Assembly (NCBI GenBank): GCA_000002435.2
Contig: CM018789.1
DNA: 64,000 nt
Strand: one strand, 5' to 3'
Source of the DNA: Giardia intestinalis
Lineage: Eukaryota
Shown here: in pieces, positions 7,554 to 54,324 of the stretch
Numbering within the stretch: position 1 is the stretch's first letter
How the letters are laid out: each line of letters opens with the position of its first letter
Notes under the pieces: model-generated
Databases searched by the model: none
What the model saw: the letters and a program-made list of their open reading frames with translations, nothing else
Told to the model about the DNA's origin: nothing
Program-made: the position numbers and the translations under genes

Positions 7554-8481
7554 GGCCCGGTGAGCGCTTCCGGCACGCATGCCCCGTAGGTCTAAGTTGT
7601 ACAGTGTTTGTGAACTGTAGCGGAGACAGAGAAAGGTGGAAGCTGCATGCAACTTCCATCGCGGGAGTGCACGTCCCCGGTGGTCTATGAAAATAACCTC
7701 ATGCTGCCAAGGTTTTACTGCGTACGAAAGTTAGTAACATGGTACTGGAGACAATCGGTGGATGGAATGAATCATCATCACCAGGAGGTAAGTTTTCTAG
7801 GAGCCTACACCGAGTACTCCCACACTCACAAGGAATCTCCCCTAGACCTCCCTCATGTACGCTGCTATTTCTGAGGGCACTGAGATAACTTAAAGGTACC
7901 CCCTCGACAGGGACAGAATGAACAGTAACAAGTACACCGCATTCATCCTTGTTGTCAAGGCCGAGCAGAGGGCTATGTTGGAACTACTCAAGCCAACCAA
8001 CAAGAGGGATATGGAGGCAGTGAGTCTCTGATTCCTCTCTAAAAACGAAGAGGTAAGGCAAATATAAGACCAGCAGTATTTACATGTCTATACACTGCTG
8101 CTCCAATGAGACAGTTCAGCTGGACACGTTACTTTTGTCAGAGTGTTGGTAAAGTATACGGATGAATTGAAGAGTGATCACGGCAGCACTGTCTTTATAT
8201 ATACAGTTGCTAATGATCACAAAGAATTTGTAGGATTGCTATTGAATAAAAGAGGGGCCTACAGGATACTAGCCGTTGAACTACTCTTATATTAGCGGCA
8301 TAGCATAACAAATCAGAATATGTCAAACTTCTCGCAGAGAAAAAGAGAAGTATAAAGACCATTCGGAGCTGGGATAGTCTTTTGCTCGGTCGACTACGTT
8401 TGCTGTGTATAGAAAGGAAGACTACAACTATCATAGTGTTTTCCACAAGAGTTCAGGGAGTAGCAAATTTGGTTGGTATAA

Positions 8482-39037: not shown

Positions 39038-39667
39038 GAATTAAGAATTTATTGGTCCTGTCAGCCTCCTGTCAGCCGTTGATCGCCCATTGTCTAATGT
39101 GGCTTGCTACTCGGTTCTACCACTGGCCCTGCACGTTGGCTACTGGGTGCCGTTGAGAGGATCACCAACCCAGCCACCCAATCGACGAAGGAAGTGGCGG
39201 TAGACGCTCATGATCGTCTGCATGTGTTCGTTGTTGACGAGCGCTTGTATGCACTGCAGACCGCTGAGAACGCTCAGCAAACGCCACAGTGACCTTAGTC
39301 ATAGATCGGGGTGATGTACTCATCTCGGAGGTCGACCACACCAGGAATGGGCCTCAGCGATTTGGCACACAGGCACTCTGGGTTGGCCGACTGTAGTGGA
39401 GGAGCATGATTCACAGATGTCCTTTGGCTCCCCTATGAAGACGCAAAGCCTGGCTGTTTGTCTTTAACACTGCGAGCAACAGATACTCATAAACACCAGT
39501 TTACACAAAATGTAACGTTCGTTTTTAGGCTTGAGAGTTGGATGCATGTGCATCTGGGCCTATAGTGGGATAGCTGGTAAGGTAGTGTTCAACAGAATGT
39601 TCGTAGAATGCACCTGTACGTAGATTCCACACTTAACTTTCTGGGACACACAAAAAATAGTATACGA

Positions 39668-41896
39668 ATGTTGTGTCTGCTAGCTTTGGAATTCGTAGTT
39701 AGCCTCGTTGTCGATGCTTATCAGAATGCTTTTGAAAAGGAGTGTACGACTGTGGCGCAAAAGGACACATGCGCGACCAAGAAGTGTATAACGGTCAGCG
39801 GCACCGAACTGTGCCGCGAGTGCGTTGGCGGAAAAGTCCCTATCGACGGGATTTGTAAGGACACTACTGATTCCAGTGTTAGTTTATATGGATGCGAGCA
39901 TTCTAGTGGCACTGGATTTTGCACCTCGTGCAAGGATACCGCCTTCCTCTTCTACGGCAGCTGTTACGCTATAGACAAGGTTCCGGGAAACCTTGTTTGT
40001 AGCAAAGCAGAGAGTGGCAAGTGTACGGAGTGCAGACAAGGATCAAAGTTTCTGTTTACAAACCCCGACGACAGTGCGGCGGAACGGTGCATATTGTGTT
40101 ACGACAACGTCGGCTTCGGCTCATATAAAGGCGTCGATGGCTGCAGGTACTGCCTGCCTCCGCTCACCGGAGAGACATCTGCAGAGTGCAACTGGTGCCA
40201 GAATGAGAAGTATGGCCCGATAGACGGAGTATGCAAAGATCCGGGCAGGCACTTGTGCGCCGACGGGGCCTGCTCAAACTGTTACATGACTCACATTCAG
40301 CACAACGGAGGGTGCTACACAAAGACAGAAACCGTTGCACAGAAGATATGCACCACCGAAAACCAGTTCCAAGTAATTAACATCACTGCCTGCAAGAAGT
40401 GCGCCATTAAAGGGGAGGTCCCAATGGACGGGCGGTGCATAAAGGGCTTGCTCGAGCCAAAGTGCAACCCGTATCCTAACACGGATGGCAGCTGTACCGA
40501 TTGTAAGAAGGGCGGAGTCAGCTACGACACGTTCCTGTTCAACGAGGGCTGCTACAACATGAGCGATTACATCGGGTCCCAGATCTGCAGCAAGGTTAAC
40601 GAAAACGCAGAATGTGAACTTTGGAATATCGGAAGTTATGCAGTTTTCCGGCCTCCAAACGACAAAACTGCCCATACGTGCAGCGATACTTCTGCCAGGG
40701 GCATCCCTGGATGCTCCCGCTGCAGCTACAATGTTGAGAAGAAAGGGCCTATTTGCTATAACTGTGAGTACAACACGTTGGCTTTTGATAGAATGTCATG
40801 TATCACTGAAACCAGCTGCACAGGGGATAATGTACAACGAAAGTGCCCTGGAAACTCCGAAAGAGGGTGCAGATGCGAGTGTGCAGAGAAATCCTATAAG
40901 AACGGAGATAAGTGCGTTGCGTGCGATTCATCATGTCTGAAATGCGCTGGACGAGAGAGTAGATCTTGCACACTGTGTCCTCCTGGCAAAGCTCTTAAAT
41001 ACATAGGAAGTTCTATGGTAGGAACGTGTGAAGAGGGCTGCAAACAGGATGATACATGCGAGACCTGTGGCCTAACGGTTAATCAAACAGCATATTGCTC
41101 TAAGTGCAAGGACCCCACTAAATATCCCCTAGATGGTGTGTGCACATCAGCAAGTGAAGCCAGGACATCCGCCTGTTTGCAGCAGTCCAATGGAGCGTGT
41201 CAGAAATGCTCATCTGACTATTTCTTAATGGGCGGTGGCTGCTACCAAATCAACAAATATCCCGGTCGATTTGTATGTGGATGGGCCGACGATGGGAAGT
41301 GTATAGAGACTATGAATGGATACAGCATTAACGACCAGGGCCAACTTGTAGATTGCGACTCTACCTGCATGACGTGCGTGGAAGGCAAGAAGGAGCAATG
41401 CTTGTCGTGTCACTCAAGCAAATACCTCAAGAAGGAAGGGACAACTTCTTACGGCACCTGCGTGAGCCGCAACGACTGCAAGGACGGATACTACGCCAAT
41501 CACGATACCATGGAGTGCCTCCCGTGCAACATCAACGACTGCGTCTCGTGCCATCTTATTGACAAGTCAATTTTGTGCAGTCGATGTCGTGGAGACAATC
41601 TTGTGGGCCTCGACAAACGCTCGTGCACGACGGTGATCCCCGAAAATGCCGTTGAGTCCTGGGGTGGTTATACATGCAACGATGACTCGGTTCTCTCGGG
41701 CAACGCATGTCTGAGAAAGAGCTCCCAGAAGAACAAAGGAAATGGGCTTTCTAACAACGTGATTATTGGAATTTGTGTTGGAGCTGTTTTGATTATGGGT
41801 GCGCTGATTGGTGTCCTGGCCTGGTGGGTGGTGTCCCGGAAGAAAAAGAGCGCCAGCTTTGAACGTAGTAGAAGCCTGGTTATATCTAAGTCCTAG
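39668..41896 (+). CDS. High-cysteine membrane protein (HCMP): Cys-rich ectodomain, single transmembrane helix, short basic cytoplasmic tail.
   Basis: From ATG at 39668 the signal peptide is MLCLLALEFVVSLVVDAYQ. A CXXC/CXC-rich ectodomain of about 700 aa follows, then the transmembrane segment IIGICVGAVLIMGALIGVLAWWVV and the tail SRKKKSASFERSRSLVISKS. It does not end in CRGKA. An upstream in-frame ATG at 39608 would add 20 aa before the signal peptide. Confidence 0.85.
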   Translation: MLCLLALEFVVSLVVDAYQNAFEKECTTVAQKDTCATKKCITVSGTELCRECVGGKVPIDGICKDTTDSSVSLYGCEHSSGTGFCTSCKDTAFLFYGSCYAIDKVPGNLVCSKAESGKCTECRQGSKFLFTNPDDSAAERCILCYDNVGFGSYKGVDGCRYCLPPLTGETSAECNWCQNEKYGPIDGVCKDPGRHLCADGACSNCYMTHIQHNGGCYTKTETVAQKICTTENQFQVINITACKKCAIKGEVPMDGRCIKGLLEPKCNPYPNTDGSCTDCKKGGVSYDTFLFNEGCYNMSDYIGSQICSKVNENAECELWNIGSYAVFRPPNDKTAHTCSDTSARGIPGCSRCSYNVEKKGPICYNCEYNTLAFDRMSCITETSCTGDNVQRKCPGNSERGCRCECAEKSYKNGDKCVACDSSCLKCAGRESRSCTLCPPGKALKYIGSSMVGTCEEGCKQDDTCETCGLTVNQTAYCSKCKDPTKYPLDGVCTSASEARTSACLQQSNGACQKCSSDYFLMGGGCYQINKYPGRFVCGWADDGKCIETMNGYSINDQGQLVDCDSTCMTCVEGKKEQCLSCHSSKYLKKEGTTSYGTCVSRNDCKDGYYANHDTMECLPCNINDCVSCHLIDKSILCSRCRGDNLVGLDKRSCTTVIPENAVESWGGYTCNDDSVLSGNACLRKSSQKNKGNGLSNNVIIGICVGAVLIMGALIGVLAWWVVSRKKKSASFERSRSLVISKS

Positions 41897-42816
41897 AAGA
41901 CTCCGTCGTAAGCCACAAATGCGCTACTATTGTCTTTAAAGTCTAACACTATGCATGCTAAATCACTAGGTTGCAGCTCATCAACAAGGTCTACTAGCCT
42001 TTTATGGTAGTCTTTGGAGTCGTGCTGCTCTTCGTCGTTTCTAGCTAAGCGTAGCATGCTTGTGAAGAGGGGAGGAAGATTACCATAGTACTCAGTGAAC
42101 GCATCTAAGCAAGCCAGTTTGATTTCCCTTATTAGCGAGGGCTTCTTACACTTACGCCATGCCAGGCGGTCAGTCAAGATATCTAACCAGAGATAGCACA
42201 GGGCCTCGTAGTCATCACTGTACTGGGCTTTCCCACCAACTACGACATTAGAAGACGCGTACCTTGGAGTGACACGCGTGTCAGGATGCACTGTATCGCA
42301 TGTAATAAAGATGGCAGAGGATAGATCAATTGCCTTGGCTACGTCGTCTTTAACCAGAAAGTTGCGGGGACTGATGTCGCGGATAGAATAGCCAAGGGCA
42401 TGAGCAGTCGCAAGAGCATCGATAGTGCTGCGCAGCTTAGAAAGGATTGTAACTGCCACTTTGTCAGTGAGTCCAGAGACTAACATTGGCCGGAGCCGTT
42501 CTCCCCAGCGATCAAGAGTCTCGTCCATTAACTCCGTGGCCAGAAAATGGACATTCTCTGTCGTGCCGCACCCCAGAGGGCGCACAAAACAGGCAGGATT
42601 CGCTGCATGCATAGCCGCTAGAAGATCAAATTCCTTCGCAAAAGGATTCCCTGTGCATTCATGATCTCTTTGTGTTTTACTTGCTATCTTCAATGCCACA
42701 AAGGACGGGCTACACTCAGCTTCCGAGCAAGTAGACTGGGCTTTATATACTGTACCTGTGTTCCCGTAGCCCAAGAACTCAGAGACCTCGTAAGACCCCA
42801 CGGTCTGTCCGATCAT
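41893..42816 (-). CDS. Serine/threonine protein kinase, CK1/TTBK-like.
   Basis: 307 aa. It has the glycine loop LGYGNTGTVYKA, the VAIK-like ...ALKIASK, the catalytic-loop segment IRDISPRNFLV and an activation-loop region. ATG is at 42814-42816. The 4-nt overlap with the HCMP stop is typical of Giardia gene packing. Confidence 0.7.
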   Translation of the reverse strand: MIGQTVGSYEVSEFLGYGNTGTVYKAQSTCSEAECSPSFVALKIASKTQRDHECTGNPFAKEFDLLAAMHAANPACFVRPLGCGTTENVHFLATELMDETLDRWGERLRPMLVSGLTDKVAVTILSKLRSTIDALATAHALGYSIRDISPRNFLVKDDVAKAIDLSSAIFITCDTVHPDTRVTPRYASSNVVVGGKAQYSDDYEALCYLWLDILTDRLAWRKCKKPSLIREIKLACLDAFTEYYGNLPPLFTSMLRLARNDEEQHDSKDYHKRLVDLVDELQPSDLACIVLDFKDNSSAFVAYDGVF

Positions 42817-42835
42817 TATTTTGATTTACATCGCC

Positions 42836-45307
42836 GGTCCGAGCAATCCGTACCCCGTACAAGTCCTCCCCGCGGAAGGCGGACCCCGCCCGTTCGCCGC
42901 CCCAAGCCCAGAGTCCGGGGTTCGGGTCAGAACGTCGGTTGAGTCCGGGGGAGAAGAGCCCGACCGTGCACGCCAGCTCTGGCATCAACCGGAACGCCCT
43001 TCATACCTGCCGAGGAGCTAAGGCGCAATCCCTACCACCCAGTAGCACGACCGAGGCCACGGGGTTGAGCGGACGACAGCACCAGAGCGCCCGGCTGCTC
43101 GAGGCCCGGCGGACCAGAGGGCCTCCGTGAGGAAGACAGGGACCCGGCTCGTCCAGGGCACTGCGAAGCGCCGCCCCTCGCCGGGGATGCGCTCCGACGC
43201 CAGGAGAACGAGGGCCGCGGGCACACGTGGACGCCTGATAAGACGGCGGAAAAGCCGCGCCTCTCGTGCGAGCACGTGAAGCACTCATGAGCGCGCTTCC
43301 GGTGCTCCAGGTCCGGCCCGGGCCTCAGGAGCCCACTGAGACGGAGCATCCTACGCTGAGCGGCACCGGGTGAACGTTGAACTAGTAGGAGCGGAAGAGC
43401 ACGTGCCTGTCCTGAGCGAAGACCCTCCGCGGCGAGGCCGTCCAGACGCATGCAGCACAGACACCGGATGCAGGGCGCTGCTGAGTGGGGCAGCGGGGAT
43501 AGAGAAGGACATCCCCCTCAGCGCCCGTCGTGTGAACGTGCTCAGGGGAGGGTACCTAACACCCCGCAGAGCTCCAGTCGAGAGCCGAGGAGACGTGCCT
43601 CCCCACACAGCGGGGAAGCGGAGGAGCGGCATTCACCGGCCCGCTGCCCGGCTTGCAGCCTCTGCCTCGCCTCGAAGGGGAGCTGCCCCCTAACAGCGCC
43701 ACCGACGACCAGCACCTTGCTATCCAGAGGGCCGGGTCAGGACGGCCTGGACCTACGCTGGCGAGTCCATCCGGGTGCAGGCCTTCAGCGAGATCCTCGG
43801 CGCGATCCATAGGATGGGATGCGTGCTCTGTACGGTTCCGCCTGGCCCTTCCCCAAGAATGAGACAGGACAACCACGATCAGGGGACGATCATGATGCGC
43901 TCCACAAGGTAGTCCCGAGTCCCCTGGAGACCCAGACACTAGCCTTCCCGAGACAGAGCAGACTGCGTTCTACTGACTGCACATGGTGGCGTTCGCATGG
44001 CACAGGGAGACACAGGCTGATGGGCACGGCGACCTCGCTCGACATAACGAGCACCCCGACAGCAGACGGCCTCTGCCGGGCGAGTGTGCCCCGTCCCGAG
44101 GAGCTGCGTCGAGGCCTTCCTCCGGCTGTGACACGCCGCACCCCTGGGCTCGGTCCCTCGGGGCCCTACGCATGCTTCTGTGCTGCGCGGGACAGAACCT
44201 GCTCGCCAGGAGCTGAGGAGAGACCCCGCTCAGTGCCCATGCCGACGACACACTCATCTTCCATAGTAGCAACAATGACGTGGCGGGGGTAGTCACAGAG
44301 GCGGCAGGCCTGGTGAAGCAACATGGCTCGACGGTCAACACTGACAAGTATAGGAACACAGAGGGGCAGGAGGCCTCCTTCCTGGCCGGTCGAAGGAGCT
44401 CCCAGGGCAACGGAGGGCCGAAGCCAGTGATGGCACTAATCACTCGCCACGCTGGTCGAGATGGACCCGCACGTGGCCTATGTGAATCCCTCGGCAAGAG
44501 ATGGGAGCCTTGGGGTGCTTGGCTGGCAGAGGCGGACTGATCCTGCCCACACCGAAGAGTGGCGGCCTGGAACACCTGTCTGGCGTCTGCCGCAGCAGTT
44601 GGTAATCCCTTGACACCATCGAGTAGACGGGTGCCGGTTGTAGAGAGACGGCCTGACAGCGAACCGGTCCTGATCGCTCCTGGTGCCTCAGACGACGCCT
44701 CGACAGACCGAAGCATCACCCCAAGTGTGCTGTGCAGATGGACCAGCCCACAGGTCAGCTAAGCCAGACACGCTGCACAGGGTGAGCGTCGATGTGATCT
44801 CGTGCTGGGTGACGGACCAGCTGCAAGAGTGCACTGTGATTCATGAATAGGAGGGCAAACCAGAAGCCAGACCTCTCCTCCAACGCCAACGCATGGGAGT
44901 ACTCCGCCGGCATCCACGAACGCGTACTATGACTCCAAGACAGAGGCGCACGAGGAGCGCACCCTCCGGTCATACTCGGGACTGATGGTGCCCTCCACGA
45001 AGAGACGAAGAGGCACCCCGAGGAACGGGGTAGACACCCGGGGTCGTGGCGTGGGATCTTCGTCGTAGAGCATCAGCACCACGAAGCAATCCTGGAGTAC
45101 ATTGCCAGAGTCAATTGCTCTTGAGACTAGATCGCCGCGACTGACGCAAGGCCCTGAGATAGTAGGTGCCCACCAGTGCCAGACGGTAGTTGACCCCGAC
45201 GGGCCAGAGGAAGGAAAGTCCTAGGGGCACCGCGAGGAGCGGCAGCTTTTAGGAGAGCTGGGACATAGGGGTTCTTCCGCCGGGATCGAGGGCATCCGAC
45301 TCTCGGA
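42836..45307 (+). mobile_element. Copy 1 of a 2.47-kb GC-rich element: a 5'-truncated, degenerate non-LTR retrotransposon fragment (GilD-like dead element).
   Basis: Directly repeated at 51579-54050 (offset 8743 bp). All embedded ORFs are identical between copies except one amino acid (...EERSGFWF... versus ...EERSDFWF...). It contains an RT-like frame (44220-44540). The boundary is uncertain by about 5 bp because of a 1-nt indel at the 5' junction. Confidence 0.7.
44220..44540 (+). pseudogene. Reverse-transcriptase remnant (motif C and the downstream thumb region) of a non-LTR retrotransposon, interrupted by stops and frameshifts.
   Basis: Frame-0 translation reads GETPLSAHADDTLIFHSSNNDVAGVVTEAAGLVKQHGSTVNTDKYRNTEGQEASFL.... 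This parallels the L1/R2-type xYADDhhh-(about 20 aa)-GhxhNxxKT segment (for example FADDMIVYLENP...VSGYKINVQKSQAFLY). A TGA sits 9 codons upstream, and the upstream RT motifs are not in frame. Confidence 0.55.
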
Positions 45308-45596
45308 CTCTGGACTCTGCCTGGAAGCGAAAGACCTGCCTTCACTTGCCTCAACTGCCATTAAACTCTGATCTTACCCAGTGTACCGAAGCAAAAATAA
45401 GACTGTTCGGGCTGCCCCCGCGTGCTAATAGATCCCATCAGAAGTAGACGAGTCGTGGAGATGGGCTCGTTCCACGTGCCTGCTCCTCTGAGGATGCGCT
45501 GCCCTTGCTCCCCACCGAGTCCCTGGTGCTCCTCTCCGTCTCTCTGTGATCAGTAACATGTGGCACTGGCGCTTCGCTCTACCGGCCTTAGAGCGT

Positions 45597-47648
45597 TTAC
45601 TCTGAGAGGAGGGCAATTATCTCATGGCGCCTCCATAGCTTGGCCATGTCAAGGGCAGTTTCGTCCATATTATCTCTAATATTCTTCTCCCTCACAAGGA
45701 GCCTCGCACACTCTACGTAGCCGCTCTGTGCAGCGACTGTGAGAGCGGGCCATCCATCGTTATTTTGCATACCGCCCTCTTTCTCCACAAGTAATCTGAC
45801 ACAGCTTGCGTGGCCATTCTGCGCAGCCCACATGAGGGCCGTCCATCCATCCCTCGATTGCGCACAACTCTCCTTTTCTACGAGTAGCTCAACACAGCCA
45901 GCTTCGCCACGTTCTGCAGCAATCATAAGGGCGGTCCATTTGCTGTTATCCTGTATACCGCCTTCCTGCCTCAGAAGCAATTCGACACAGCTTCTGTGGC
46001 CTTTCCCCGCTGCAGCCATAAGGGCGGTTTCCCCATCGTTATCTTGCATGCCAACCTCGTTTTTCAAGAGCAATTTGGCACACTCTGAATGGCCAGCACT
46101 TGCTGCAGCCATGAGGGCCGTCCACCCCTTATCGCTCTTCATGCCGCTTTCCTTCTCTAGCAGGAGCTTAAGACAGTCTGCGCGGCCAGTCCTTGCAGTA
46201 TACATGAGGGCGGTCCATCCGTTGCTATCTTTCAGTCCCTTCTCTTTCTCCGCGAGCAGCTCCACAATCTCTGTGTATCCATATACCGCCGCCCTTATCA
46301 GAGCAGTTCCCTCGTATATCTTCCAGTCACCTACAAGTGCGCATCCCTTCATCTTCATGCCCCCCTGGAGCGGTATGAGGGCCTTCACAGCCTCCACGTC
46401 GTTTCTATCGACTGCCTTCATGAGGTCGGTGGAGTCGTCCTCCTCTATTAGGTGCTTCTCTGGCTCTTCTGACTCGTCTGATTCGTCTGACTCCTCCATT
46501 TCGTCTGTCTCGTCTGTTTCGCCCATCTCTGTCTTAATCTCCTGTATTTCCCTGAATAGCTTGGCGGCAATAGCACACTGCTCCCTAATGATGTCCATTC
46601 TTGCAGCTCGATCAGGAGGGTCCTTCCTAAGAGCTACTGTTTCGTTGTTGGCTCTATTCAAGGCTTCTACAAAGGCTGCGCGCACCTCCTTTAACCTTGT
46701 ATCTTGGGCCTCTTGTTCATCAGCAGAGATGCCAAGCCTCCGAAGTAGACGGGCGAGCCTTCTGGCAGTCGGCCTCTCGGCGGGATCGAGGACGAGCATC
46801 CTCTCAAGGACGCTCCTTGCGAGGTCGTCTGCGACACCGCTCAGGTCCGGCCTCCATCCGTCGACGAAGACCTCTGCTGGCTCCCTGCCCCCCAAGAAAT
46901 CCGGCTTCCTCAGGGTGGCGAGCTCGTATGCGACGGCCCCGAGGCTCCAGACGTCGGATGCGGCGGTCGTGTCACCGCAGAGGAGTGTCTCGGGGGCCAT
47001 GTACGCGGGGTCGCCAGCCTTCGCAGCTCCGCTCGATATGCCCTCGCAGAACCCGAAGTCTGCAAGAACAACACGCCGCCCGTCCCCAGCGAACATGATG
47101 TTGTCGGGCTCGAGGACAACGCTAGAGGGCAGGCCGTTGTGGGCACCTCTGCTGAGCCCGTGGAGGTGGGCAAGGGCGCCAGCCAGCTGCCCCAGAAGGG
47201 AGAGCACCAGCTTGCTGGGAATAGGTTCGTGAATGTCCCTGTAGTCGGTGATGAACTGCCTCAGGTCCCCGCAGCAGCGGTCTGTGACAACAAGGATCGT
47301 ATTGTCATCCATAAGCACCTGGTGGTATTTGAGAACGTCTGGGTGAAGGGTGCCTAGAAGAACGGTCAGCCTACGCCGAATGGCATCTACGCTGTGTTGA
47401 TCCAGACCATCAAGCCGGATTTCTTTCACAGCAAGGTACGGGCATCCCCTGAGAGAGTAGACGGCACCGTGGGCATCCTTACTGAGCATGTTACCTAGGC
47501 GTCTATGCAACTTTTTGGGGCTGAACACGGGAACGCCACCAGCGCCCATCGGCCCTGAAAAGCCGCTAACTAAATTGTTACTGGCATCTCCTAGGGCGCC
47601 CTCTGCGGTGGCTAAGGCAGAGGGGTAAAGCCCGCAGTCAACAGCCAT
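45597..47648 (-). CDS. NEK-like protein kinase domain (probably catalytically degenerate) fused to C-terminal TALM-type ankyrin repeats (Giardia NEK/protein 21.1 family).
   Basis: From ATG at 47648 (the track start at 47654 is GTG). The kinase core has ...YLAVKEIRL... and DFGFCEG but an altered catalytic loop (HGLSRGAHNGLPSSVVLEPDNIMF, no HRD). An acidic linker follows, then about 9 ankyrin repeats (GWTALMYTARTGRADCLKLLLEKE...). Confidence 0.8.
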   Translation of the reverse strand: MAVDCGLYPSALATAEGALGDASNNLVSGFSGPMGAGGVPVFSPKKLHRRLGNMLSKDAHGAVYSLRGCPYLAVKEIRLDGLDQHSVDAIRRRLTVLLGTLHPDVLKYHQVLMDDNTILVVTDRCCGDLRQFITDYRDIHEPIPSKLVLSLLGQLAGALAHLHGLSRGAHNGLPSSVVLEPDNIMFAGDGRRVVLADFGFCEGISSGAAKAGDPAYMAPETLLCGDTTAASDVWSLGAVAYELATLRKPDFLGGREPAEVFVDGWRPDLSGVADDLARSVLERMLVLDPAERPTARRLARLLRRLGISADEQEAQDTRLKEVRAAFVEALNRANNETVALRKDPPDRAARMDIIREQCAIAAKLFREIQEIKTEMGETDETDEMEESDESDESEEPEKHLIEEDDSTDLMKAVDRNDVEAVKALIPLQGGMKMKGCALVGDWKIYEGTALIRAAVYGYTEIVELLAEKEKGLKDSNGWTALMYTARTGRADCLKLLLEKESGMKSDKGWTALMAAASAGHSECAKLLLKNEVGMQDNDGETALMAAAGKGHRSCVELLLRQEGGIQDNSKWTALMIAAERGEAGCVELLVEKESCAQSRDGWTALMWAAQNGHASCVRLLVEKEGGMQNNDGWPALTVAAQSGYVECARLLVREKNIRDNMDETALDMAKLWRRHEIIALLSE

Positions 47649-47842
47649 TGCCACTTTTAAATCTCCATCTTAACTTGTTTTTTAAGAAGGTATTCAGTCC
47701 ATGTTTACAGAAGCCGGCCTTTTCTATACTATACAGTAGTCATCAATTAATGAACAGAATTATGTACTCATTTGGAGGTTTCCTCCTCTAGTGTGCTTAG
47801 ATACAACAAAGATGATTCATTTCACCAACCGGTTACTTCCAA

Positions 47843-47940
47843 TACTGTGTTGTTGGGACCTCCGCCTGTGGACATGGCCCAAAGGTTCCACGAATAAGCC
47901 CTCGCTCAATTCCTGGCCATATCTAGAGAAAAAGGCTACT
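47843..47940. repeat. Left arm of a perfect 97-98-bp terminal inverted repeat pair.
   Basis: The reverse complement of 47850-47940 is identical to 48862-48953. The arms enclose about 920 bp of AT-rich sequence with no ORF of 60 aa or more. Confidence 0.8.
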
Positions 47941-48861
47941 CGATGAGCACAAGGGCCCCCTCTAGTTACACAGAGGGACGACTAGAGACTCAACACAATT
48001 GTCACATACCACCTTCAGCTGTTAAGGGAATCAACACAGAACCGGGAACCAGATATTTGACTTATAGGCACGTATAAAATGATAGCTGGACCCATCTAGT
48101 CATCAGACGAACCAGTTACGGCGAAATATTCGGAAATACAGAGATAGAACATTCGTAATTATTTATGGAGCGAGCGATTTCTTCATCCTATATCCAGAGG
48201 CACCTTGAGAAACTCCGCGTGGTAACCAAACGAACACCTAACGAGATTAATCATAGGCTTTGAGAGCTAGCCTTCAGGGTGACTGAAGGAGGGAGAACCA
48301 CTGGCTACCCGAAGTTCTGAGGTATCCCCAAGCTCATAGCTTAGACAGACGACCATGGGACAAGAGAAACAACCACATTTTCACCAACCACTGTCACCCC
48401 CAATCCAAAGAGCCACAGCGATAGAAACCAACTAGACCCTAGAGGAAGGAACAACTATCGATAGGTAACGAGGTTCTGCATAGCGAACTACGGGCCCGCA
48501 GCATCCATCTGTTTTCACGGCGTTAGGATGGACTTTCGTAGGATTAGGGATGCCTTATGGGGTAAGAGACTATCGGTGGAATCGAAGTAGCAACGACGGC
48601 TACAGACAGAGGGGATAAAACGCTGTAAAAGAGGACATTGATGACCCGAATTCTCATCCATCATAGATAACAGACCAAGGAAGGAGGTGGAATTTATTAG
48701 TTACACGTGTTTGCAGAAAATTGGGGTCCCGGGCGAATCAGGCGTGCGAGCATCACCAGACGTGCATACCTGAGCCGAATGCACACACTACATAAGATCA
48801 CCAAAAAGAGTTGTATCCAGACGTACTAGTGAGAAGGAATCTCTTGTTACATTATTTACTA

Positions 48862-48958
48862 GTAGCCTTTTTCTCTAGATATGGCCAGGAATTGAGCGAG
48901 GGCTTATTCGTGGAACCTTTGGGCCATGTCCACAGGCGGAGGTCCCAACAACACAGCA
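48862..48958. repeat. Right arm of the 97-98-bp inverted repeat pair.
   Basis: See the left arm. The match is agtagcctttttctctagatatggccaggaattgagcgagggcttattcgtggaacctttgggccatgtccacaggcggaggtcccaacaac. Confidence 0.8.
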
Positions 48959-50292
48959 CTTAGATATAATCATAGCGTTAATACCCTCTCATGATTTCCA
49001 ACCCGTTTATGCCACAAAAGGAGAGATAATTATTTTCATGTTATATATAGACTGACGATACTTTTATTATGCTTGGTCTTCATAAGCAGCCAGTGACTTT
49101 TAATAGATATTTGGTTGTGTGGCATAAAACAACATGAGAAATACTAGCTCCGTTTCCTGCTTACAGTCGTTCGATCAGTTATAGCCTCGTGAGCATTAGG
49201 ACTCTGATGACATATCTTGTAAATGTTAGCCTCGAAATATCTGTTGATTTAGAAGACGAGAGACAACCCTATGTGTACCATCTTCTTGACTCCATGGGGT
49301 ATCCTTGTATACTAATCCATATATAAACCTGCCAGATAGATGGTAGAGCAGCTATTGTGGAGAGCTTACATAGGATCCTGTCTGCAGGCATAGTTCTGGG
49401 ATTTCACGAGTGAATTCCTTCATTTTTTGCTATCTCTAGAAACAATTAAGAGCTTCCCCCGCGACCTTGTACACCAAATCCGGTGCATCTTTAAATTCTT
49501 CAGATGGCACTCGTGTCTAACCTGAGTGAGTATGCTCTAATGGCACATATAGTTTTACTCCTTGTATGAGTCTGGCCCTTTCAAGAGCGTTAGCAGGCTG
49601 CGAGCACACATCTTTCTCAGACTCGGTAGTCTAGCTTTGGTCCCCCATCGTCCTCCTTATCTTCGGAGCATTCCCTGTCCTGTAAAACTGCACTCTATCA
49701 TCAGGGAGGCAAGGAGAGACTCAGAATTTATGAGTCGCTCTGTGGCGTTTATCCATCTGTGTTACTGGATTCTGGGCCCCCAACTTGCATTAGTAGCTCA
49801 GGAGTCGCATAAGCGTACCCACTTCCTTTGTAGCTTTATGTGGAGATGAAGCTAAATGGCTGCTAACAGGTCTGTGGATTCTTTTGGCAAGTTTGCATGT
49901 CGAATCAGTATGTTGTTAGGGATTTCGACTCCATATTCCTGTCTGGCCCGAATGCATGCGATGGCCGTTTTTGCCTTTTCACCGCTTCTACCTTGCTATG
50001 GGTTCTTAGCAGTCGATGTTTCTTCTTTTTCTCAATCGTTCTGATCACCCATGCAAGGAGCCCTGCTAACAGTTAGACGTACGTTGACAGTAGGCAATCA
50101 CTGGGTGGCCAGACTTTCAGCTCAGTCACTTCTGATCGGCTTCGTCGGATGCTCAGTTCGTGATCATCATAAGGCTCGAAGTGAAAAGCTTCACATTGTG
50201 TCGTTTATAATCCTCGTCTTCAACATAACTAATATAAATGGAAGTTTGCTCATGTATTTCTGCATCTACTCGCAGGTAAAGAGTCCAAGACT

Positions 50293-50889
50293 TTACTTAG
50301 CCTCATCTAGTGACAGGAGTAAATTATCGTCAGTAACTGCGGAAATTTCCCTATCAATTTTTGCGGCGGGACACGGGCGCCCTAAAGTAACTCTACTTTC
50401 AATTATGGTTTTTCTCATTCTGGTAATACTCCCCTCACATCGCATATAAGCATACTGACGTGAAGGAGATGTAAAGTAAACAGGAAATTTCCCAGAGAAC
50501 ATGGTTATAGCAATAACACATCGATATATTTTCTCAGCTGATGGCGTTATTTGCGGTCCACCGATAATGGGTATAAACTTTACCGAGTAGAGCTTTGAAT
50601 CTATTTGGGGTGTCATTTGATTTATAGTAGTACTTACTGAGAGACGGATTTGATCTCTTTGGCGATTAGATAATACAAAACCTCTTATACGGCTGCTATC
50701 ATCTATGCCAAAAAACAAATGCCCGCCGTTGGTATTAATAAAGGCATTTAAGTAAATTTGGGAATATCTTCTAATCTCTCGTATAAGGTTCTTTGTATCT
50801 TGTAGTGCTTTAAACTCCGTCTCTTTATCCTCTTCGAAATCTATCAGGTCATCATAGCGGAGGGACTCTGGAAGGGGACGAAGGGTCAT
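50293..50889 (-). CDS. AlbA_2 / Schlafen-like domain protein (198 aa).
   Basis: ATG at 50887-50889. The N-terminal half has the AlbA_2 (PF04326-type) signature ...ETEFKALQDTKNLIREIRRYSQIYLNAFINTNGGHLFFGIDDSSRIRGFVL... (EFK, then AF.NT.GG.L.FGIDD...I.G). It lies in a low-GC island between the two retroelement copies. Confidence 0.55.
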   Translation of the reverse strand: MTLRPLPESLRYDDLIDFEEDKETEFKALQDTKNLIREIRRYSQIYLNAFINTNGGHLFFGIDDSSRIRGFVLSNRQRDQIRLSVSTTINQMTPQIDSKLYSVKFIPIIGGPQITPSAEKIYRCVIAITMFSGKFPVYFTSPSRQYAYMRCEGSITRMRKTIIESRVTLGRPCPAAKIDREISAVTDDNLLLSLDEAK

Positions 50890-51578
50890 CTAAATTTCAG
50901 TAAATGTTGATGAACTTTACATAAACAGTATACAGTAACAAACTGAAGACTGGGCCGTATCGCCCTCCGAATGCCGGGACCAAAGACACCAGGCCAACGC
51001 GGAGGTCTTCGAGCGGCGCCAATGGTGCACAGGGCTGAAGCCGGAGGTTCAGGATCTGCTGCCGAGGGCAGCCGGCGCCCGGTTGTCGGGCCGGGTCCTC
51101 CGAGCTGCCCCGCGATCGACGACGACGCAGAGGCGGGCATCAAGGGCGTCGTCTCCAGATGTCTCCCAGGTCGCTGTACGCCCCATGCAAGGCATTGATG
51201 GAGCCACTTGCCCCGATGGCAGTTTCGACACCATCCTTCAAGGGCGCGCTGGACGCGTTTCTGCGCTGAGAGCGGGAGGAAGGTAAGCACGAAGAGAGCT
51301 TGCTCTGTCCATTGAGGTCGGCTGCTAGCCACTATTAGCAAGTCCTTCGTGCGGGCCGCCGCGCGGTGGCTCCCTCACTCATTCATCCAGAACTCGAACT
51401 TGGGGGTCGCCCACCTCTGGAGAAGAGCCTTGTGCTTCCTCCCTAGGGGGCCGTTGTTACCCCGCGATGCGTTCCTCTGGCCAATCTGGGCCAGCTGCTC
51501 CCTGCACCCGGTGGGCACCTGCTACCCCAGGGCTATGCAGCTCGCCTTCTGCCTCATCGAGGCTGATCTGCCACCTGC

Positions 51579-54050
51579 CGGCCGAGCAATCCGTACCCCG
51601 TGCAAGTCCTCCCCGCGGAAGGCGGACCCCGCCCGTTCGCCGCCCCAAGCCCAGAGTCCGGGGTTCGGGTCAGAACGTCGGTTGAGTCCGGGGGAGAAGA
51701 GCCCGACCGTGCACGCCAGCTCTGGCATCAACCGGAACGCCCTTCATACCTGCCGAGGAGCTAAGGCGCAATCCCTACCACCCAGTAGCACGACCGAGGC
51801 CACGGGGTTGAGCGGACGACAGCACCAGAGCGCCCGGCTGCTCGAGGCCCGGCGGACCAGAGGGCCTCCGTGAGGAAGACAGGGACCCGGCTCGTCCAGG
51901 GCACTGCGAAGCGCCGCCCCTCGCCGGGGATGCGCTCCGACGCCAGGAGAACGAGGGCCGCGGGCACACGTGGACGCCTGATAAGACGGCGGAAAAGCCG
52001 CGCCTCTCGTGCGAGCACGTGAAGCACTCATGAGCGCGCTTCCGGTGCTCCAGGTCCGGCCCGGGCCTCAGGAGCCCACTGAGACGGAGCATCCTACGCT
52101 GAGCGGCACCGGGTGAACGTTGAACTAGTAGGAGCGGAAGAGCACGTGCCTGTCCTGAGCGAAGACCCTCCGCGGCGAGGCCGTCCAGACGCATGCAGCA
52201 CAGACACCGGATGCAGGGCGCTGCTGAGTGGGGCAGCGGGGATAGAGAAGGACATCCCCCTCAGCGCCCGTCGTGTGAACGTGCTCAGGGGAGGGTACCT
52301 AACACCCCGCAGAGCTCCAGTCGAGAGCCGAGGAGACGTGCCTCCCCACACAGCGGGGAAGCGGAGGAGCGGCATTCACCGGCCCGCTGCCCGGCTTGCA
52401 GCCTCTGCCTCGCCTCGAAGGGGAGCTGCCCCCTAACAGCGCCACCGACGACCAGCACCTTGCTATCCAGAGGGCCGGGTCAGGACGGCCTGGACCTACG
52501 CTGGCGAGTCCATCCGGGTGCAGGCCTTCAGCGAGATCCTCGGCGCGATCCATAGGATGGGATGCGTGCTCTGTACGGTTCCGCCTGGCCCTTCCCCAAG
52601 AATGAGACAGGACAACCACGATCAGGGGACGATCATGATGCGCTCCACAAGGTAGTCCCGAGTCCCCTGGAGACCCAGACACTAGCCTTCCCGAGACAGA
52701 GCAGACTGCGTTCTACTGACTGCACATGGTGGCGTTCGCATGGCACAGGGAGACACAGGCTGATGGGCACGGCGACCTCGCTCGACATAACGAGCACCCC
52801 GACAGCAGACGGCCTCTGCCGGGCGAGTGTGCCCCGTCCCGAGGAGCTGCGTCGAGGCCTTCCTCCGGCTGTGACACGCCGCACCCCTGGGCTCGGTCCC
52901 TCGGGGCCCTACGCATGCTTCTGTGCTGCGCGGGACAGAACCTGCTCGCCAGGAGCTGAGGAGAGACCCCGCTCAGTGCCCATGCCGACGACACACTCAT
53001 CTTCCATAGTAGCAACAATGACGTGGCGGGGGTAGTCACAGAGGCGGCAGGCCTGGTGAAGCAACATGGCTCGACGGTCAACACTGACAAGTATAGGAAC
53101 ACAGAGGGGCAGGAGGCCTCCTTCCTGGCCGGTCGAAGGAGCTCCCAGGGCAACGGAGGGCCGAAGCCAGTGATGGCACTAATCACTCGCCACGCTGGTC
53201 GAGATGGACCCGCACGTGGCCTATGTGAATCCCTCGGCAAGAGATGGGAGCCTTGGGGTGCTTGGCTGGCAGAGGCGGACTGATCCTGCCCACACCGAAG
53301 AGTGGCGGCCTGGAACACCTGTCTGGCGTCTGCCGCAGCAGTTGGTAATCCCTTGACACCATCGAGTAGACGGGTGCCGGTTGTAGAGAGACGGCCTGAC
53401 AGCGAACCGGTCCTGATCGCTCCTGGTGCCTCAGACGACGCCTCGACAGACCGAAGCATCACCCCAAGTGTGCTGTGCAGATGGACCAGCCCACAGGTCA
53501 GCTAAGCCAGACACGCTGCACAGGGTGAGCGTCGATGTGATCTCGTGCTGGGTGACGGACCAGCTGCAAGAGTGCACTGTGATTCATGAATAGGAGGGCA
53601 AACCAGAAGTCAGACCTCTCCTCCAACGCCAACGCATGGGAGTACTCCGCCGGCATCCACGAACGCGTACTATGACTCCAAGACAGAGGCGCACGAGGAG
53701 CGCACCCTCCGGTCATACTCGGGACTGATGGTGCCCTCCACGAAGAGACGAAGAGGCACCCCGAGGAACGGGGTAGACACCCGGGGTCGTGGCGTGGGAT
53801 CTTCGTCGTAGAGCATCAGCACCACGAAGCAATCCTGGAGTACATTGCCAGAGTCAATTGCTCTTGAGACTAGATCGCCGCGACTGACGCAAGGCCCTGA
53901 GATAGTAGGTGCCCACCAGTGCCAGACGGTAGTTGACCCCGACGGGCCAGAGGAAGGAAAGTCCTAGGGGCACCGCGAGGAGCGGCAGCTTTTAGGAGAG
54001 CTGGGACATAGGGGTTCTTCCGCCGGGATCGAGGGCATCCGACTCTCGGA
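51579..54050 (+). mobile_element. Copy 2 of the 2.47-kb GilD-like non-LTR retrotransposon fragment. It probably extends further 5' than copy 1.
   Basis: Near-identical to 42836-45307. The ORF 51349..51873+ crosses the 5' repeat boundary in frame, continuing upstream into the GC-rich 690-bp segment 50890-51578. This suggests copy 2 is the longer, less truncated element. Confidence 0.7.
52963..53283 (+). pseudogene. Reverse-transcriptase remnant (copy 2), identical to 44220-44540.
   Basis: Same ...LSAHADDTLIFHSSNNDVAGVVTEAAGLVKQHGSTVNTDKYRN... frame, offset by 8743 bp. Confidence 0.55.
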
Positions 54051-54324
54051 TCTTGGACGGTAAGCAGGAGACCCATCCAGTGCAGTAGCTTGCACGAGGG
54101 AATTTGCTCAGATACACCTAGTGAAACGTGTCTGTTCGTCACATCCCCTACTTTCCCCAAGTCAAATGCCAGAGCCTTGGGGGCCTATTGGTGCTTTGTT
54201 GAGGACTGCTGTGCACAGACCCCAGATGCTCGACTAGACAGACTATCAGTGAACATGTTTATTGGCGACCTTTGGTCTGAAAAATTAGCGAGAGTCCGGC
54301 CCTGCTTTCCGACTGCCCTGCGCT

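What the first reader, a model, noticed from the sequence alone, without database searches (positions are those of the whole stretch)
42816..54324. Repeat-bounded 11-kb accessory block: retroelement copies bracket a NEK-like/ankyrin gene and a foreign-looking AT-rich island
The block is laid out as follows. The CK1-like kinase start codon is at 42816. Repeat copy 1 runs 42836-45307. The NEK-like/ankyrin gene runs 45597-47648 on the minus strand. A 3.7-kb AT-rich stretch spans 47655-50890 and contains the 97-bp inverted repeat element and the AlbA_2-like gene. A 690-bp GC-rich leader follows, then repeat copy 2 at 51579-54050. The base composition of 47.7-50.9 kb is strikingly different from the flanking genes. 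In 47357-49562 not a single ORF of 60 aa or more exists in six frames. This looks like nested mobile-element insertions or a partial tandem duplication. It is the kind of NEK/ankyrin plus retroelement neighbourhood seen in variable or subtelomeric Giardia regions.
Basis: seen in the sequence. Interest (0 to 1): 0.55.

Follow-up and report, generated by a model that had tools for sequence, protein, structure and literature searches.

The report
Dead retroelement copies bracket Giardia genes
Two near-identical 2.5-kb fragments of a dead retrotransposon flank a NEK kinase gene, a gene-free AT-rich spacer and a short AlbA_2 gene in Giardia WB; this is an old, real arrangement kept uniform by gene conversion, and an ordinary feature of this genome, not a foreign island.

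Summary
The window is Giardia intestinalis WB, from the 2020 PacBio assembly (1.49-Mb contig). Positions 42839-45307 and 51582-54050 are direct repeats, 99.8% identical and 8,743 bp apart. They bracket a NEK/ankyrin gene, an ORF-free AT-rich stretch with a perfect 96-nt inverted repeat, and a 198-aa AlbA_2 gene. The repeats are non-coding, 64.5% GC, and carry decayed reverse-transcriptase motifs. That fits the dead GilD / "psi-RT" remnants already described near VSP genes, but I had no GilD reference sequence to compare.

All four repeat junctions recur in sub-assemblage AII (DH) and in other assemblage-A read sets, so this is neither an assembly artefact nor a recent duplication. Inside the repeats, 110 sites are shared by both WB copies and differ from both DH copies, against 2 sites with the orthologous pattern. 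Lineage-specific microhomology deletions also sit in both copies. This is concerted evolution by gene conversion.

The island is not foreign. The nearest relatives of its AlbA_2 protein are metamonad AlbA_2-STAND NTPases, and its GC content and divergence match other intergenic DNA in the window. In assemblage E (P15), synteny ends exactly at the first repeat boundary.

Verdict: a well-characterised instance of a known kind of structure. Interest is low to moderate.

The parts
41893..42816 (-). Protein kinase gene (KAE8301342, 'Kinase'); CK1-group/TTBK-like. Its start codon lies 22 nt from the first retroelement copy.
   Evidence: Pfam Pkinase E=6.9e-12; exact match to XP_001707944; best PDB relatives TTBK1/2.
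42832..42838 (+). 5' junction microhomology: flank GCCGGTC against GCCGGC at the end of the leader upstream of copy 2. P15 shares this flank up to 42838.
   Evidence: Junction alignments; the P15 alignment ends at 42839.
42839..45307 (+). Retroelement remnant copy 1 (psi-RT, GilD-like), 5'-truncated, 64.5% GC, no intact ORF (20-29 stops in each plus-strand frame).
   Evidence: Self-BLAST 99.8%; six-frame translation; sub-threshold RVT_1 hit, E=0.008-0.0016.
43775..44261 (+). Decayed RT core in copy 1, read by eye. Motif A-like 'VQAFSEI' at 43775 (frame 0), motif B-like 'PQGSPES' at 43902 (frame 1), motif C 'HADDTLIF' at 44238 (frame 1). At least one frameshift lies between motifs A and B. The same motifs occur in copy 2 at +8743.
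   Evidence: Translations. The Pfam RVT_1 match covers only the ADD box (profile positions 146-196).
45308..45596 (.). Spacer between the end of copy 1 and the NEK stop codon, GC 0.56. The junction lies within a 3x GACTCTG heptamer at 45298-45319.
   Evidence: The junction is conserved in DH and in the ENA isolates.
45597..47648 (-). NEK kinase gene (kinase domain plus ankyrin repeats), KAE8301343.
   Evidence: Pfam Pkinase plus Ank families; cluster look-up; pN/pS 0.16 against DH.
47655..49561 (.). ORF-free AT-rich spacer (GC 0.436; longest ORF 51 aa).
   Evidence: No Rfam or tRNA match.
47845..47940 (+). Inverted-repeat arm 1 (96 nt).
   Evidence: The arms are perfectly complementary in WB, with 2 mismatches in the ENA isolates and 5 in DH.
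48861..48956 (-). Inverted-repeat arm 2 (96 nt), separated from arm 1 by a 920-nt ORF-free spacer. No target-site duplication at the outer ends.
49562..50292 (.). AT-rich DNA downstream of the AlbA_2 gene. It holds only short, unsupported ORFs and no relic of the NTPase part of related proteins.
50293..50889 (-). 198-aa stand-alone AlbA_2 (Schlafen-type) domain gene, KAE8301344, GC 0.395. A truncated paralogue of the metamonad AlbA_2-STAND NTPase family.
   Evidence: Pfam PF04326, 43.2 bits.
50946..51581 (+). GC-rich 'leader' (about 0.61-0.65 GC). Probably the 5' continuation of retroelement copy 2; this is inferred.
   Evidence: Composition. The part 51139-51576 diverges 6.9% from DH. A microhomology deletion in the ENA isolates runs from 51138 into the element. 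Short-read contigs break at 51315-51462.
51582..54050 (+). Retroelement remnant copy 2, the same fragment as copy 1.
54325..55992 (+). Hypothetical protein GL50803_00111871, the right-hand neighbour of the block.
   Evidence: The junction of copy 2 with this flank is conserved in DH.

Best explanation
The block is a chromosome-internal A-B-A arrangement in Giardia intestinalis assemblage A. 'A' is a 2.47-kb fragment of a dead non-LTR retrotransposon (an RT pseudogene of the GilD / psi-RT kind), present twice in the same orientation. 'B' (6.27 kb) carries a NEK kinase gene, ordinary AT-rich non-coding DNA with a 96-nt inverted repeat, a truncated AlbA_2-domain gene, and a GC-rich stretch that is probably the 5' continuation of copy 2.

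Shown:
- The arrangement predates the AI/AII split.
- The two copies stay almost identical within each lineage because gene conversion between them spreads substitutions, and even deletions, from one copy to the other. Between lineages they drift at roughly the neutral rate.
- The element decays by microhomology-mediated deletions.

Inferred:
- Copy 1 was derived from a longer, leader-bearing element like copy 2. It was joined to the kinase upstream region through a 6-7-nt microhomology. This was either a 5'-truncated retrotransposition or DNA-level repair; the two cannot be told apart now.
- Being long direct repeats, the copies could also mediate loss or amplification of the 8.7-kb unit. No copy-number change was seen.
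For: Source genome and annotation.

Repeat and its decay:
- 99.8% identity between the copies.
- 20-29 stops per plus-strand frame; motif A lies in a different frame from motifs B and C.
- RVT_1 hit at the ADD box, E=0.0016-0.008.
- A further family member exists elsewhere: P0001, 79-88% amino-acid identity, with an unrelated N-terminus.

The structure is real and old:
- The DH (AII) contigs carry kinase|A5', A3'|NEK...AlbA...leader|A5' and A3'|111871.
- Four ENA metagenome-derived Giardia assemblies and Logan contigs from several read sets carry the same block.
- Eight Logan contigs are 100% identical across the kinase|copy-1 junction. Five of them stop at 42889, which is 30 nt after the copy-specific SNP at 42859, as k=31 unitigs should.
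- The 3' junctions of both copies are conserved in WB, DH and the ENA isolates.
- SPAdes coverage of B against the flank is 23.4 vs 21.2 and 10.1 vs 12.8 (contig names).

Concerted evolution:
- The DH copies are 99.6% and 98.9% alike.
- 110 sites show WB1=WB2 differing from DH1=DH2, against 2 sites with the orthologous pattern.
- A segment of about 210 bp is present in both DH copies where both WB copies have about 65-90 bp.

Microhomology deletions: 'TCCCTGCCGCCC' and 'GGCGGGC' sit at the deletion junctions, and GCCGG(T)C at the 5' junction of copy 1.

Near-neutral drift: the repeats differ 5-16% between WB and DH. Synonymous divergence of the neighbouring genes is 5.7-11.4%.

Literature: GilD is dead, disrupted by microhomology-mediated deletions, and found in gene-poor regions next to VSPs (PMC2861651). 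RT remnants and self-similar regions of more than 2 kb at more than 95% identity are mapped in the WB genome, 6.9% of which is duplicated (PMC7000408).
Against: - The RT assignment rests on a sub-threshold Pfam hit (16-19 bits against a 29.6 cut-off) plus motifs read by eye. No GilD, GilM or GilT reference sequence was available, so family membership is untested.
- Two homology searches with translations of the repeat found only one relative, or none.
- There is no poly(A) and no target-site duplication at the copy ends, so the mode of origin is unresolved.
- The DH and ENA contigs come from short-read or 454 assemblies and end inside the repeat. Copy-specific sequence is known only for about 0.5-1.2 kb at each end.
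- Only isolates that carry the AlbA_2 or NEK protein can be found by the look-up, so genomes lacking the block would have been missed.
Confidence: 0.72

Rival explanations
1. Recent segmental or partial tandem duplication. The 2.5-kb segment, or the 8.7-kb unit, was copied recently at the DNA level in the WB lineage, which would explain the 99.8% identity. The unit would then vary in presence or copy number among isolates.
For: Near-identity of the copies. Both copies share the same stops and the same 3' end. One metagenome scaffold (L011) connects leader to A to the NEK 3' end, as a tandem or circular unit would. The WB genome is 6.9% duplicated (PMC7000408).
Against: All four junctions exist in DH (AII) and in other A isolates, so the duplication predates the AI/AII split. 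The within-isolate identity comes with 110 fixed between-isolate differences, which is the signature of conversion, not of youth. The B block is at flank-level coverage in two assemblies. The L011 connection is also what a collapsed repeat gives in a short-read scaffold.
Confidence: 0.1
2. Two independent retrotranspositions of the same (possibly trans-mobilised) element into neighbouring sites, with different 5' truncation and a common 3' end. Conversion later kept them alike. This rival concerns origin only.
For: Both copies have the same orientation and a common 3' boundary at 45307/54050. Copy 1 is shorter at its 5' end and has a 6-7-nt microhomology at the junction, as at 5'-truncated LINE insertions.
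Against: There are no target-site duplications and no poly(A) or other recognisable 3' tail. The shared 3' end lies only about 1.07 kb after the ADD box. That leaves no room for the long 3' UTR reported for Giardia elements (PMC5537684), so it looks like a shared truncation. The element shows no intact ORF in any isolate seen.
Confidence: 0.25
3. The AT-rich island is a foreign or mobile insertion: a horizontally acquired segment, or a DNA transposon bounded by the 96-nt inverted repeats, that brought in the AlbA_2 gene.
For: GC is 0.435 against 0.645 in the flanks. WB has a perfect 96-nt inverted repeat. There is no ORF of 60 aa or more over 1.9 kb. This AlbA_2 protein was found only in assemblage A at 90% clustering, with no close orthologue among annotated B or E proteins.
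Against: The closest AlbA_2 relatives are all metamonad (Giardia P15 at 42% identity, Hexamita, Spironucleus, Monocercomonoides, Paratrimastix, Dysnectes). The P15 paralogue has the same low GC, 0.40-0.42. Equally AT-rich windows occur elsewhere in the window. The inverted repeat does not enclose the AlbA_2 gene, has no target-site duplication and no transposase, and its arms drift apart in other isolates, with 2-5 mismatches. Divergence of the island (0.3-0.9%) equals that of other intergenic DNA here, 0.2-1.3%.
Confidence: 0.04
4. Assembly artefact: a falsely duplicated or mis-joined repeat in the PacBio assembly.
For: Near-identical copies can in principle arise from mis-assembly. The 2007 gene numbering runs XP_001707944 (kinase) to XP_001707939 (111871), while NEK and AlbA_2 carry new XP_0379015xx numbers. 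This suggests the older assembly had a collapsed version (inference).
Against: Independent assemblies and read sets reproduce every junction and the copy-specific SNP. A 2.5-kb repeat is shorter than typical PacBio reads, and the assembly was checked against optical maps (PMC7000408).
Confidence: 0.02

Closest known systems
GilD, the 'dead' non-LTR retrotransposon family of Giardia (Arkhipova & Morrison 2001), listed as psi-RT / reverse-transcriptase remnants in the WB 2020 genome (PMC7000408)
   Same: RT-derived sequence without an intact ORF. Many stops and frameshifts. Internal deletions with microhomology at the junctions. Chromosome-internal position next to a VSP/HCMP gene and a NEK gene. 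GC-rich.
   Different: Sequence similarity to GilD itself could not be tested, because no reference was available. Here two fragments with identical boundaries flank unrelated genes and evolve in concert. I did not find this described for GilD in the papers I could read.
GilM / GilT telomeric non-LTR retrotransposons of Giardia (CRE clade; GilM 5,474 bp)
   Same: Same host, and a single-ORF LINE-like element with an RT. A possible REL-endonuclease-like 'KPD...VDV' relic lies downstream of the RT (read by eye).
   Different: GilM and GilT are intact and lie in head-to-tail arrays at chromosome ends. These copies are dead and internal, with no telomere repeat or rRNA within 64 kb.
Concerted evolution of dispersed or flanking direct repeats by intrachromosomal gene conversion (as for duplicated gene pairs, LTR pairs and rDNA)
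   Same: The copies are more alike within a genome than orthologous copies are between genomes. Indels are shared by both copies. Differences survive only near the edges of the repeat.
   Different: The converted sequence is a neutral pseudogene, so there is no reason to invoke selection. Conversion is simply a consequence of 2.5 kb of homology 6 kb apart.
Metamonad AlbA_2-STAND NTPase proteins ('AAA-4 domain protein' of Giardia P15, Spironucleus, Hexamita)
   Same: The N-terminal Schlafen-type AlbA_2 domain is 38-45% identical over residues 1 to about 185.
   Different: The window protein stops after the AlbA_2 domain (198 aa against 670-860 aa). No relic of the NTPase part is detectable downstream.

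Membership tests
GilD / psi-RT dead non-LTR retrotransposon remnants of Giardia | Sequence derived from a reverse transcriptase | tested here: inconclusive
   Pfam RVT_1 matches only the ADD-box region: 16.3-18.6 bits, E=0.008-0.0016, below the 29.6 cut-off, even after frame stitching. Motif A, B and C-like strings were read by eye. No PDB hit.
GilD / psi-RT dead non-LTR retrotransposon remnants of Giardia | Only dead copies: stops, frameshifts and substitutions disrupt the ORF | tested here: met
   20-29 stops in each plus-strand frame. The motifs are spread over two frames. No intact ORF in the WB, DH or ENA copies seen.
GilD / psi-RT dead non-LTR retrotransposon remnants of Giardia | Internal deletions with microhomology at the breakpoints | tested here: met
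   Lineage-specific deletions are flanked by TCCCTGCCGCCC and GGCGGGC. Further indels lie at 43499-43608 and 43919-44093 relative to the ENA isolate.
GilD / psi-RT dead non-LTR retrotransposon remnants of Giardia | Internal, gene-poor location next to VSP-type genes (PMC2861651) | tested here: met
   The HCMP/VSP gene at 39608-41896 ends about 0.9 kb from copy 1. There are no telomere repeats or rRNA in the window.
GilD / psi-RT dead non-LTR retrotransposon remnants of Giardia | Nucleotide or protein similarity to the GilD reference sequence | not testable with these tools
   No Giardia nucleotide collection or Repbase entry was available, and Arkhipova & Morrison 2001 is not held. One diverged family member (P0001) was found, but it is unnamed.
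Recent segmental duplications of the WB genome (>95% identity, >2 kb; PMC7000408) | Self-match longer than 2 kb at more than 95% identity | tested here: met
   2,484 columns at 99.8%. However, the duplication is not recent.
Giardia NEK kinases (kinase domain plus ankyrin repeats, definition of PMC7000408) | Pkinase domain together with ankyrin repeats | tested here: met
   Pkinase at 79.5 bits and Ank_2 at 200 bits; annotated 'Kinase, NEK'.
Schlafen-type AlbA_2 domain proteins (PF04326) / metamonad AlbA_2-STAND NTPases | AlbA_2 domain above the Pfam threshold | tested here: met
   43.2 bits against a 25.3 cut-off, covering profile positions 1-116 of 118.
Schlafen-type AlbA_2 domain proteins (PF04326) / metamonad AlbA_2-STAND NTPases | C-terminal STAND/AAA NTPase module, as in the nearest relatives | tested here: not met
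   The protein ends at residue 198. tblastn with three relatives finds nothing downstream. The relatives carry AAA_16 or NB-ARC matches, most below the Pfam cut-off; only P0048 reaches it.
TIR DNA transposon (for the IR-bounded 1.1-kb unit) | Terminal inverted repeats plus target-site duplication, a transposase or further copies | tested here: not met
   The inverted repeat is present. There is no target-site duplication at 47844/48957 and no ORF above 51 aa. The arms diverge independently in other isolates. Other genomic copies could not be searched.
Horizontally acquired (foreign) island | Closest relatives outside the host lineage and composition outside the host range | tested here: not met
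   Of the top 10 relatives, the 6 that carry names are all metamonad. GC of 0.39-0.48 also occurs elsewhere in the window and in the P15 paralogue.

The most novel reading that the evidence does not exclude
The two retroelement remnants act as a recombination cassette. Crossing-over between them would release or amplify the 8.7-kb unit (NEK plus AlbA_2 plus the long inverted repeat) as a circle or tandem array in part of the tetraploid genome copies or in some isolates. The scaffold L011, which reads leader to A to the NEK 3' end, would then be real. Alternatively, or in addition, the perfect 96-nt inverted repeat in the ORF-free spacer could be transcribed into a long hairpin that feeds Giardia's Dicer pathway.
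Probability: 0.07. Interest if true: 0.55.

Novelty: new member of a known kind. Interest (0 to 1): 0.25.

Why it matters
The locus is a clear, datable example of gene conversion homogenising non-functional repeats in Giardia, an organism whose means of genetic exchange and of keeping four genome copies alike are still debated. Substitutions and deletions are shared by both copies within AI and within AII, while the junctions are shared between them. It also carries a practical warning. Near-identity of repeats in this genome does not mean a recent duplication, and GC contrast next to retroelement remnants does not mean foreign DNA. Beyond that, the structure is of a kind already catalogued in the WB reference genome.

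Tried and rejected
1. rRNA or another structured RNA as the GC-rich repeat, or within the island. Rfam found nothing at gathering thresholds over the whole window, nothing at E<=1 over 47600-51000, and there are no tRNAs.
2. Homology searches with the RT-frame translation found only one unnamed metaclust protein. The antisense long-frame translation found nothing. Frame-stitched RT versions did not lift RVT_1 above threshold, and PDB gave nothing.
3. One 20-mer of the repeat, scanned in JGI metagenomes, gave only chance matches in GC-rich bacterial contigs.
4. I first thought the ORF-free island was unusually conserved: 0.5-0.9% divergence against 2.2% in the flanks, and against pS of 6-11% in the neighbouring genes. 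I rejected this. Other intergenic segments (0.2-1.3%) and the housekeeping region at 32-38.5 kb (0.4-1.8%) are just as similar. It is the HCMP, kinase, NEK and retroelement segments that are unusually diverged.
5. I first thought the high WB-DH divergence of the repeats required conversion from third copies. This is not needed, because the divergence matches local synonymous divergence.
6. A relic of the NTPase half of the AlbA_2 family gene in the AT-rich DNA: none found.
7. Similarity between the repeat, leader or spacers and the other GC-rich repeat pair at 351-2716 / 5192-7558, or anything else in the window: none.
8. The P15 468-bp sequence beyond the breakpoint was compared with the window and all fetched loci: no match.
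9. Known small-RNA sequences matching the inverted-repeat arms in the literature: none.
10. The chromosomal position of the window and the paralogous GL50803_00114392 locus could not be fetched, because the WB chromosome is not in the gene-position index.

Full report
SOURCE. Exact look-ups place the window in the PacBio reference assembly of Giardia intestinalis WB (ATCC 50803), on the 1,485,438-bp contig. The genes are consecutive in the annotation: KAE8301341 (high-cysteine membrane protein/VSP, 39608-41896+), KAE8301342 (kinase, 41893-42816-), KAE8301343 (Kinase, NEK, 45597-47648-), KAE8301344 (putative DNA-binding domain protein, 50293-50889-) and KAE8301345 (hypothetical GL50803_00111871, 54325-55992+). 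Nothing is annotated as protein-coding inside the two repeat copies.

OBSERVATION. Self-BLAST finds one direct repeat in the region, 42833-45315 against 51577-54058. It is 99.8% identical over 2,484 columns, with differences only at 42838 (1-nt indel), 42859, 44867 and 45308-45310. The strict homology is 42839-45307 / 51582-54050, with 8,743-bp spacing.
- GC is 0.645 in the repeats, 0.435 in 47655-50890, 0.612 in the 'leader' 50891-51576, and about 0.50 in the rest of the window.
- The inverted repeat has arms of 96 nt (47845-47940 and 48861-48956), perfectly complementary and 920 nt apart.
- From 47655 to 49561 the longest ORF is 51 aa. Only 0.7% of shuffles are that ORF-poor.
The slips are small: the island is 3.2 kb, not 3.7 kb; the arms are 96 nt, not 97; and the NEK ORF itself overlaps the start of the 'ORF-free' interval.

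WHAT THE REPEAT IS. Every plus-strand frame has 20-29 stops. The plus strand nevertheless carries strings resembling RT motif A (VQAFSEI, 43775, frame 0), motif B (PQGSPES, 43902, frame 1) and motif C (HADDTLIF, 44238, frame 1).
- Pfam RVT_1 matches the ADD-box region at E=0.008, and at 0.0016 after stitching frames. That is 16-19 bits, below the 29.6-bit threshold.
- One unnamed database protein (P0001) is a 79-88% identical translation of another copy with an unrelated N-terminus, so the sequence belongs to a multi-copy family.
- The literature describes a third Giardia retrotransposon family, GilD. [quoted passage not shown]
- The WB genome paper maps RT remnants (psi-RT) and self-similar regions of more than 2 kb at more than 95% identity, and reports that 6.9% of the genome is duplicated (PMC7000408).
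- The copies fit this description, but I had no GilD sequence to compare. Membership is therefore inferred from properties, not shown.

THE STRUCTURE IS REAL AND OLD. In sub-assemblage AII (isolate DH, GCA_000498715.1) three contigs end inside the repeat.
- The first carries kinase|A-5'.
- The second carries A-3'|NEK, the island, AlbA_2 and leader|A-5'.
- The third carries A-3'|GL50803_00111871.

Four Giardia assemblies recovered from ENA metagenomes, and Logan contigs from several read sets, carry the same block. Eight Logan contigs are 100% identical across the kinase|copy-1 junction. Five of them stop at 42889, exactly 30 nt after the copy-specific base at 42859, as k=31 unitigs should where two copies become identical. 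The 3' junctions of both copies lie at the same nucleotide in WB, DH and the ENA isolates. SPAdes coverage of the B block equals that of the flank (23.4 vs 21.2; 10.1 vs 12.8; contig names). An assembly artefact and a recent WB-specific duplication are therefore excluded.

CONCERTED EVOLUTION. Within DH the two copies are 99.6% (5' 533 bp) and 98.9% (3' 470 bp) identical. DH and WB differ by 5-16% in the same segments. In four-way alignments, 110 sites have both WB copies in one state and both DH copies in another. Only 2 sites, at the very 5' edge, follow the orthologous pattern. A segment of about 210 bp is present in both DH copies where both WB copies have about 65-90 bp of different sequence. 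Because the junctions are shared between lineages, the copies must have exchanged sequence within each lineage after the split. This is gene conversion between direct repeats 6.3 kb apart. Repeat divergence between lineages is in the range of synonymous divergence in the neighbouring genes (pS 5.7-11.4%), so the repeats drift neutrally.

DECAY BY MICROHOMOLOGY DELETION. The DH-specific deletion is bounded by the direct repeat TCCCTGCCGCCC. In the ENA isolates, copy 2 has lost 51139-51696, which is the 3' part of the leader plus the first 115 nt of A. The break lies between two GGCGGGC motifs and left a 45-nt remnant that matches the DH-specific segment. So the ancestral element was longer, and the leader was contiguous with it. 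The leader's high GC, the 6.9% WB-DH divergence of 51139-51576 and the short-read contig breaks at 51315-51462 also suggest that it is element sequence.

At the 5' end of copy 1 the flank reads GCCGGTC, where the leader reads GCCGGC immediately before the homology. This microhomology suggests that copy 1 was derived from a leader-bearing element. The route was either a 5'-truncated retrotransposition or end-joining repair. The absence of target-site duplications and of a 3' tail leaves the choice open.

ASSEMBLAGE E. The P15 contig is collinear with the window from 30.3 kb to 42839 at 82-88% identity. It then continues for 468 bp of unrelated 63%-GC sequence to the contig end. The breakpoint coincides with the repeat boundary to the nucleotide. 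Either an orthologous remnant has diverged beyond recognition, which is plausible at about 84% genome identity (PMC9618722) and a neutral rate several times higher, or the site has been rearranged independently.

THE ISLAND IS NOT FOREIGN. At 90% clustering, the 198-aa AlbA_2 protein occurs only in assemblage A genomes. A full HMMER scan finds 744 relatives. Of the top ten, the six that carry names are Giardia P15 'AAA-4 domain protein' (42% identity), Hexamita inflata, Spironucleus salmonicida, Monocercomonoides exilis, Paratrimastix pyriformis and Dysnectes brevis.
- These relatives are proteins of 670-860 aa or more, with AlbA_2 followed by a STAND-type NTPase (AAA_16/NB-ARC matches, most below the Pfam cut-off).
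- The window gene is a stand-alone N-terminal domain with no detectable relic of the rest downstream.
- The AlbA_2 region of the P15 paralogue is equally AT-rich, at 0.40-0.42 GC, and lies in a different genomic context.
- The inverted repeat does not enclose the gene, has no target-site duplication, and has 2-5 arm mismatches in other isolates without compensation.
- The window has no telomere repeats or rRNA, and housekeeping genes lie on both sides. The locus is therefore chromosome-internal, a small synteny-break island of the kind described for VSP/NEK-rich spots (PMC7000408).

A LEAD THAT DISSOLVED. The ORF-free island differs by only 0.5-0.9% between WB and the other isolates. This looked remarkable next to 2.2% in the flanks and pS of 6-11% in the neighbouring genes. 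But other intergenic segments of the window differ by 0.2-1.3%, and the housekeeping region at 32-38.5 kb by 0.4-1.8%. It is the HCMP, kinase, NEK, 111871 and retroelement segments that are unusually diverged. The island behaves like ordinary Giardia intergenic DNA.

COMPARISON AND NOVELTY. In kind, this is a GilD-like RT remnant pair plus a NEK gene next to a VSP-type gene. Retroelement remnants, duplicated segments and NEK/VSP synteny breaks are all catalogued for this genome. What I did not find described in the papers available is the A-B-A layout at this locus, its age (before the AI/AII split) and the clear concerted evolution of two dead copies, including shared deletions. I rate it a new member of a known kind, of modest interest.

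LIMITS. No Giardia-wide nucleotide search was possible. As a result, the family copy number, the full-length consensus, the position of the window on the chromosome and the state of the locus in assemblage B are unknown. Copy-specific sequence from other isolates covers only the ends of the repeats.

Noticed in passing
window 351-2716 and 5192-7558: A second large repeat, inverted, 99.8% identical over about 2.36 kb. Each arm holds a VSP gene (160-1602+ and 6306-7652-, convergent) plus about 1.1 kb of 68%-GC 3' flank. A VSP-like ORF (3041-5080-) lies between the arms. This matches the convergent duplicated VSP pairs tabulated for chromosome 1 in PMC7000408. The GC-rich flank shows no similarity to the retroelement repeat.
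   Followed up: partly
window 54325-55992: GL50803_00111871 has a paralogue at 90% identity or more, GL50803_00114392, on the 2.76-Mb contig. The DNA to the right of copy 2 may therefore itself be part of an inter-chromosomal duplication. The paralogous locus could not be fetched.
   Followed up: partly
window 32000-64000 vs DH contigs L006, L008 and L009: WB-DH divergence is a mosaic. It is about 0.4-1.8% over 32-38.5 kb, the island and 61-64 kb. It is 2-6% over the HCMP, kinase, NEK, 111871 and helicase genes. Synonymous divergence ranges from 1.5% to 11.4% between neighbouring genes. This may reflect different coalescence times or exchange among gene-family members.
   Followed up: partly
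L011 (ENA ERZ28660572 scaffold_4639, 7,371 bp): This metagenome scaffold is a circular permutation of the A+B unit. It runs NEK 3' part, A, leader, AlbA_2, island, NEK 5' part, and so joins the 5' junction of copy 2 to the 3' junction of copy 1. A collapsed repeat is the most likely cause, but a tandem or circular form is not excluded.
   Followed up: no
window 50293-50889: The AlbA_2 ORF is intact in all seven sequence variants found. Against DH, however, it shows 7 non-synonymous and 2 synonymous differences (pN/pS about 1.0). Against the ENA isolates pN/pS is 0.39. Constraint may be relaxed, but the counts are too small to tell.
   Followed up: partly
L028 10001-11053 (P15 contig ACVC01000209.1): The P15 'AAA-4 domain protein' (350 aa) follows the family only to about residue 275. 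It then reads through into an Arg/Pro-rich tail, where GC rises from about 0.40 to 0.60. It looks like another truncated member of the AlbA_2-STAND family.
   Followed up: no
window 46459-46534: A 9-nt tandem repeat (TCTGACTCG, about 6 copies) lies inside the NEK gene. It encodes the acidic 'ETDETDEMEESDESDESEE' linker between the kinase domain and the ankyrin repeats.
   Followed up: no
window 45298-45319: The 3' end of copy 1 lies inside three copies of the heptamer GACTCTG. Copy 2 has only the first one and a half copies. This could be a slippage-prone end or a junction microhomology.
   Followed up: no
L010 (Logan SRR30814783, 1,196 bp): A 262-aa AlbA_2 protein, 37% identical by BLASTP (44% by phmmer), comes from an unidentified sequencing run. 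A separate 857-aa relative (P0040, 45% identical) is found only in Logan assemblies. These are possibly other Giardia species or diplomonads that have not been annotated.
   Followed up: no
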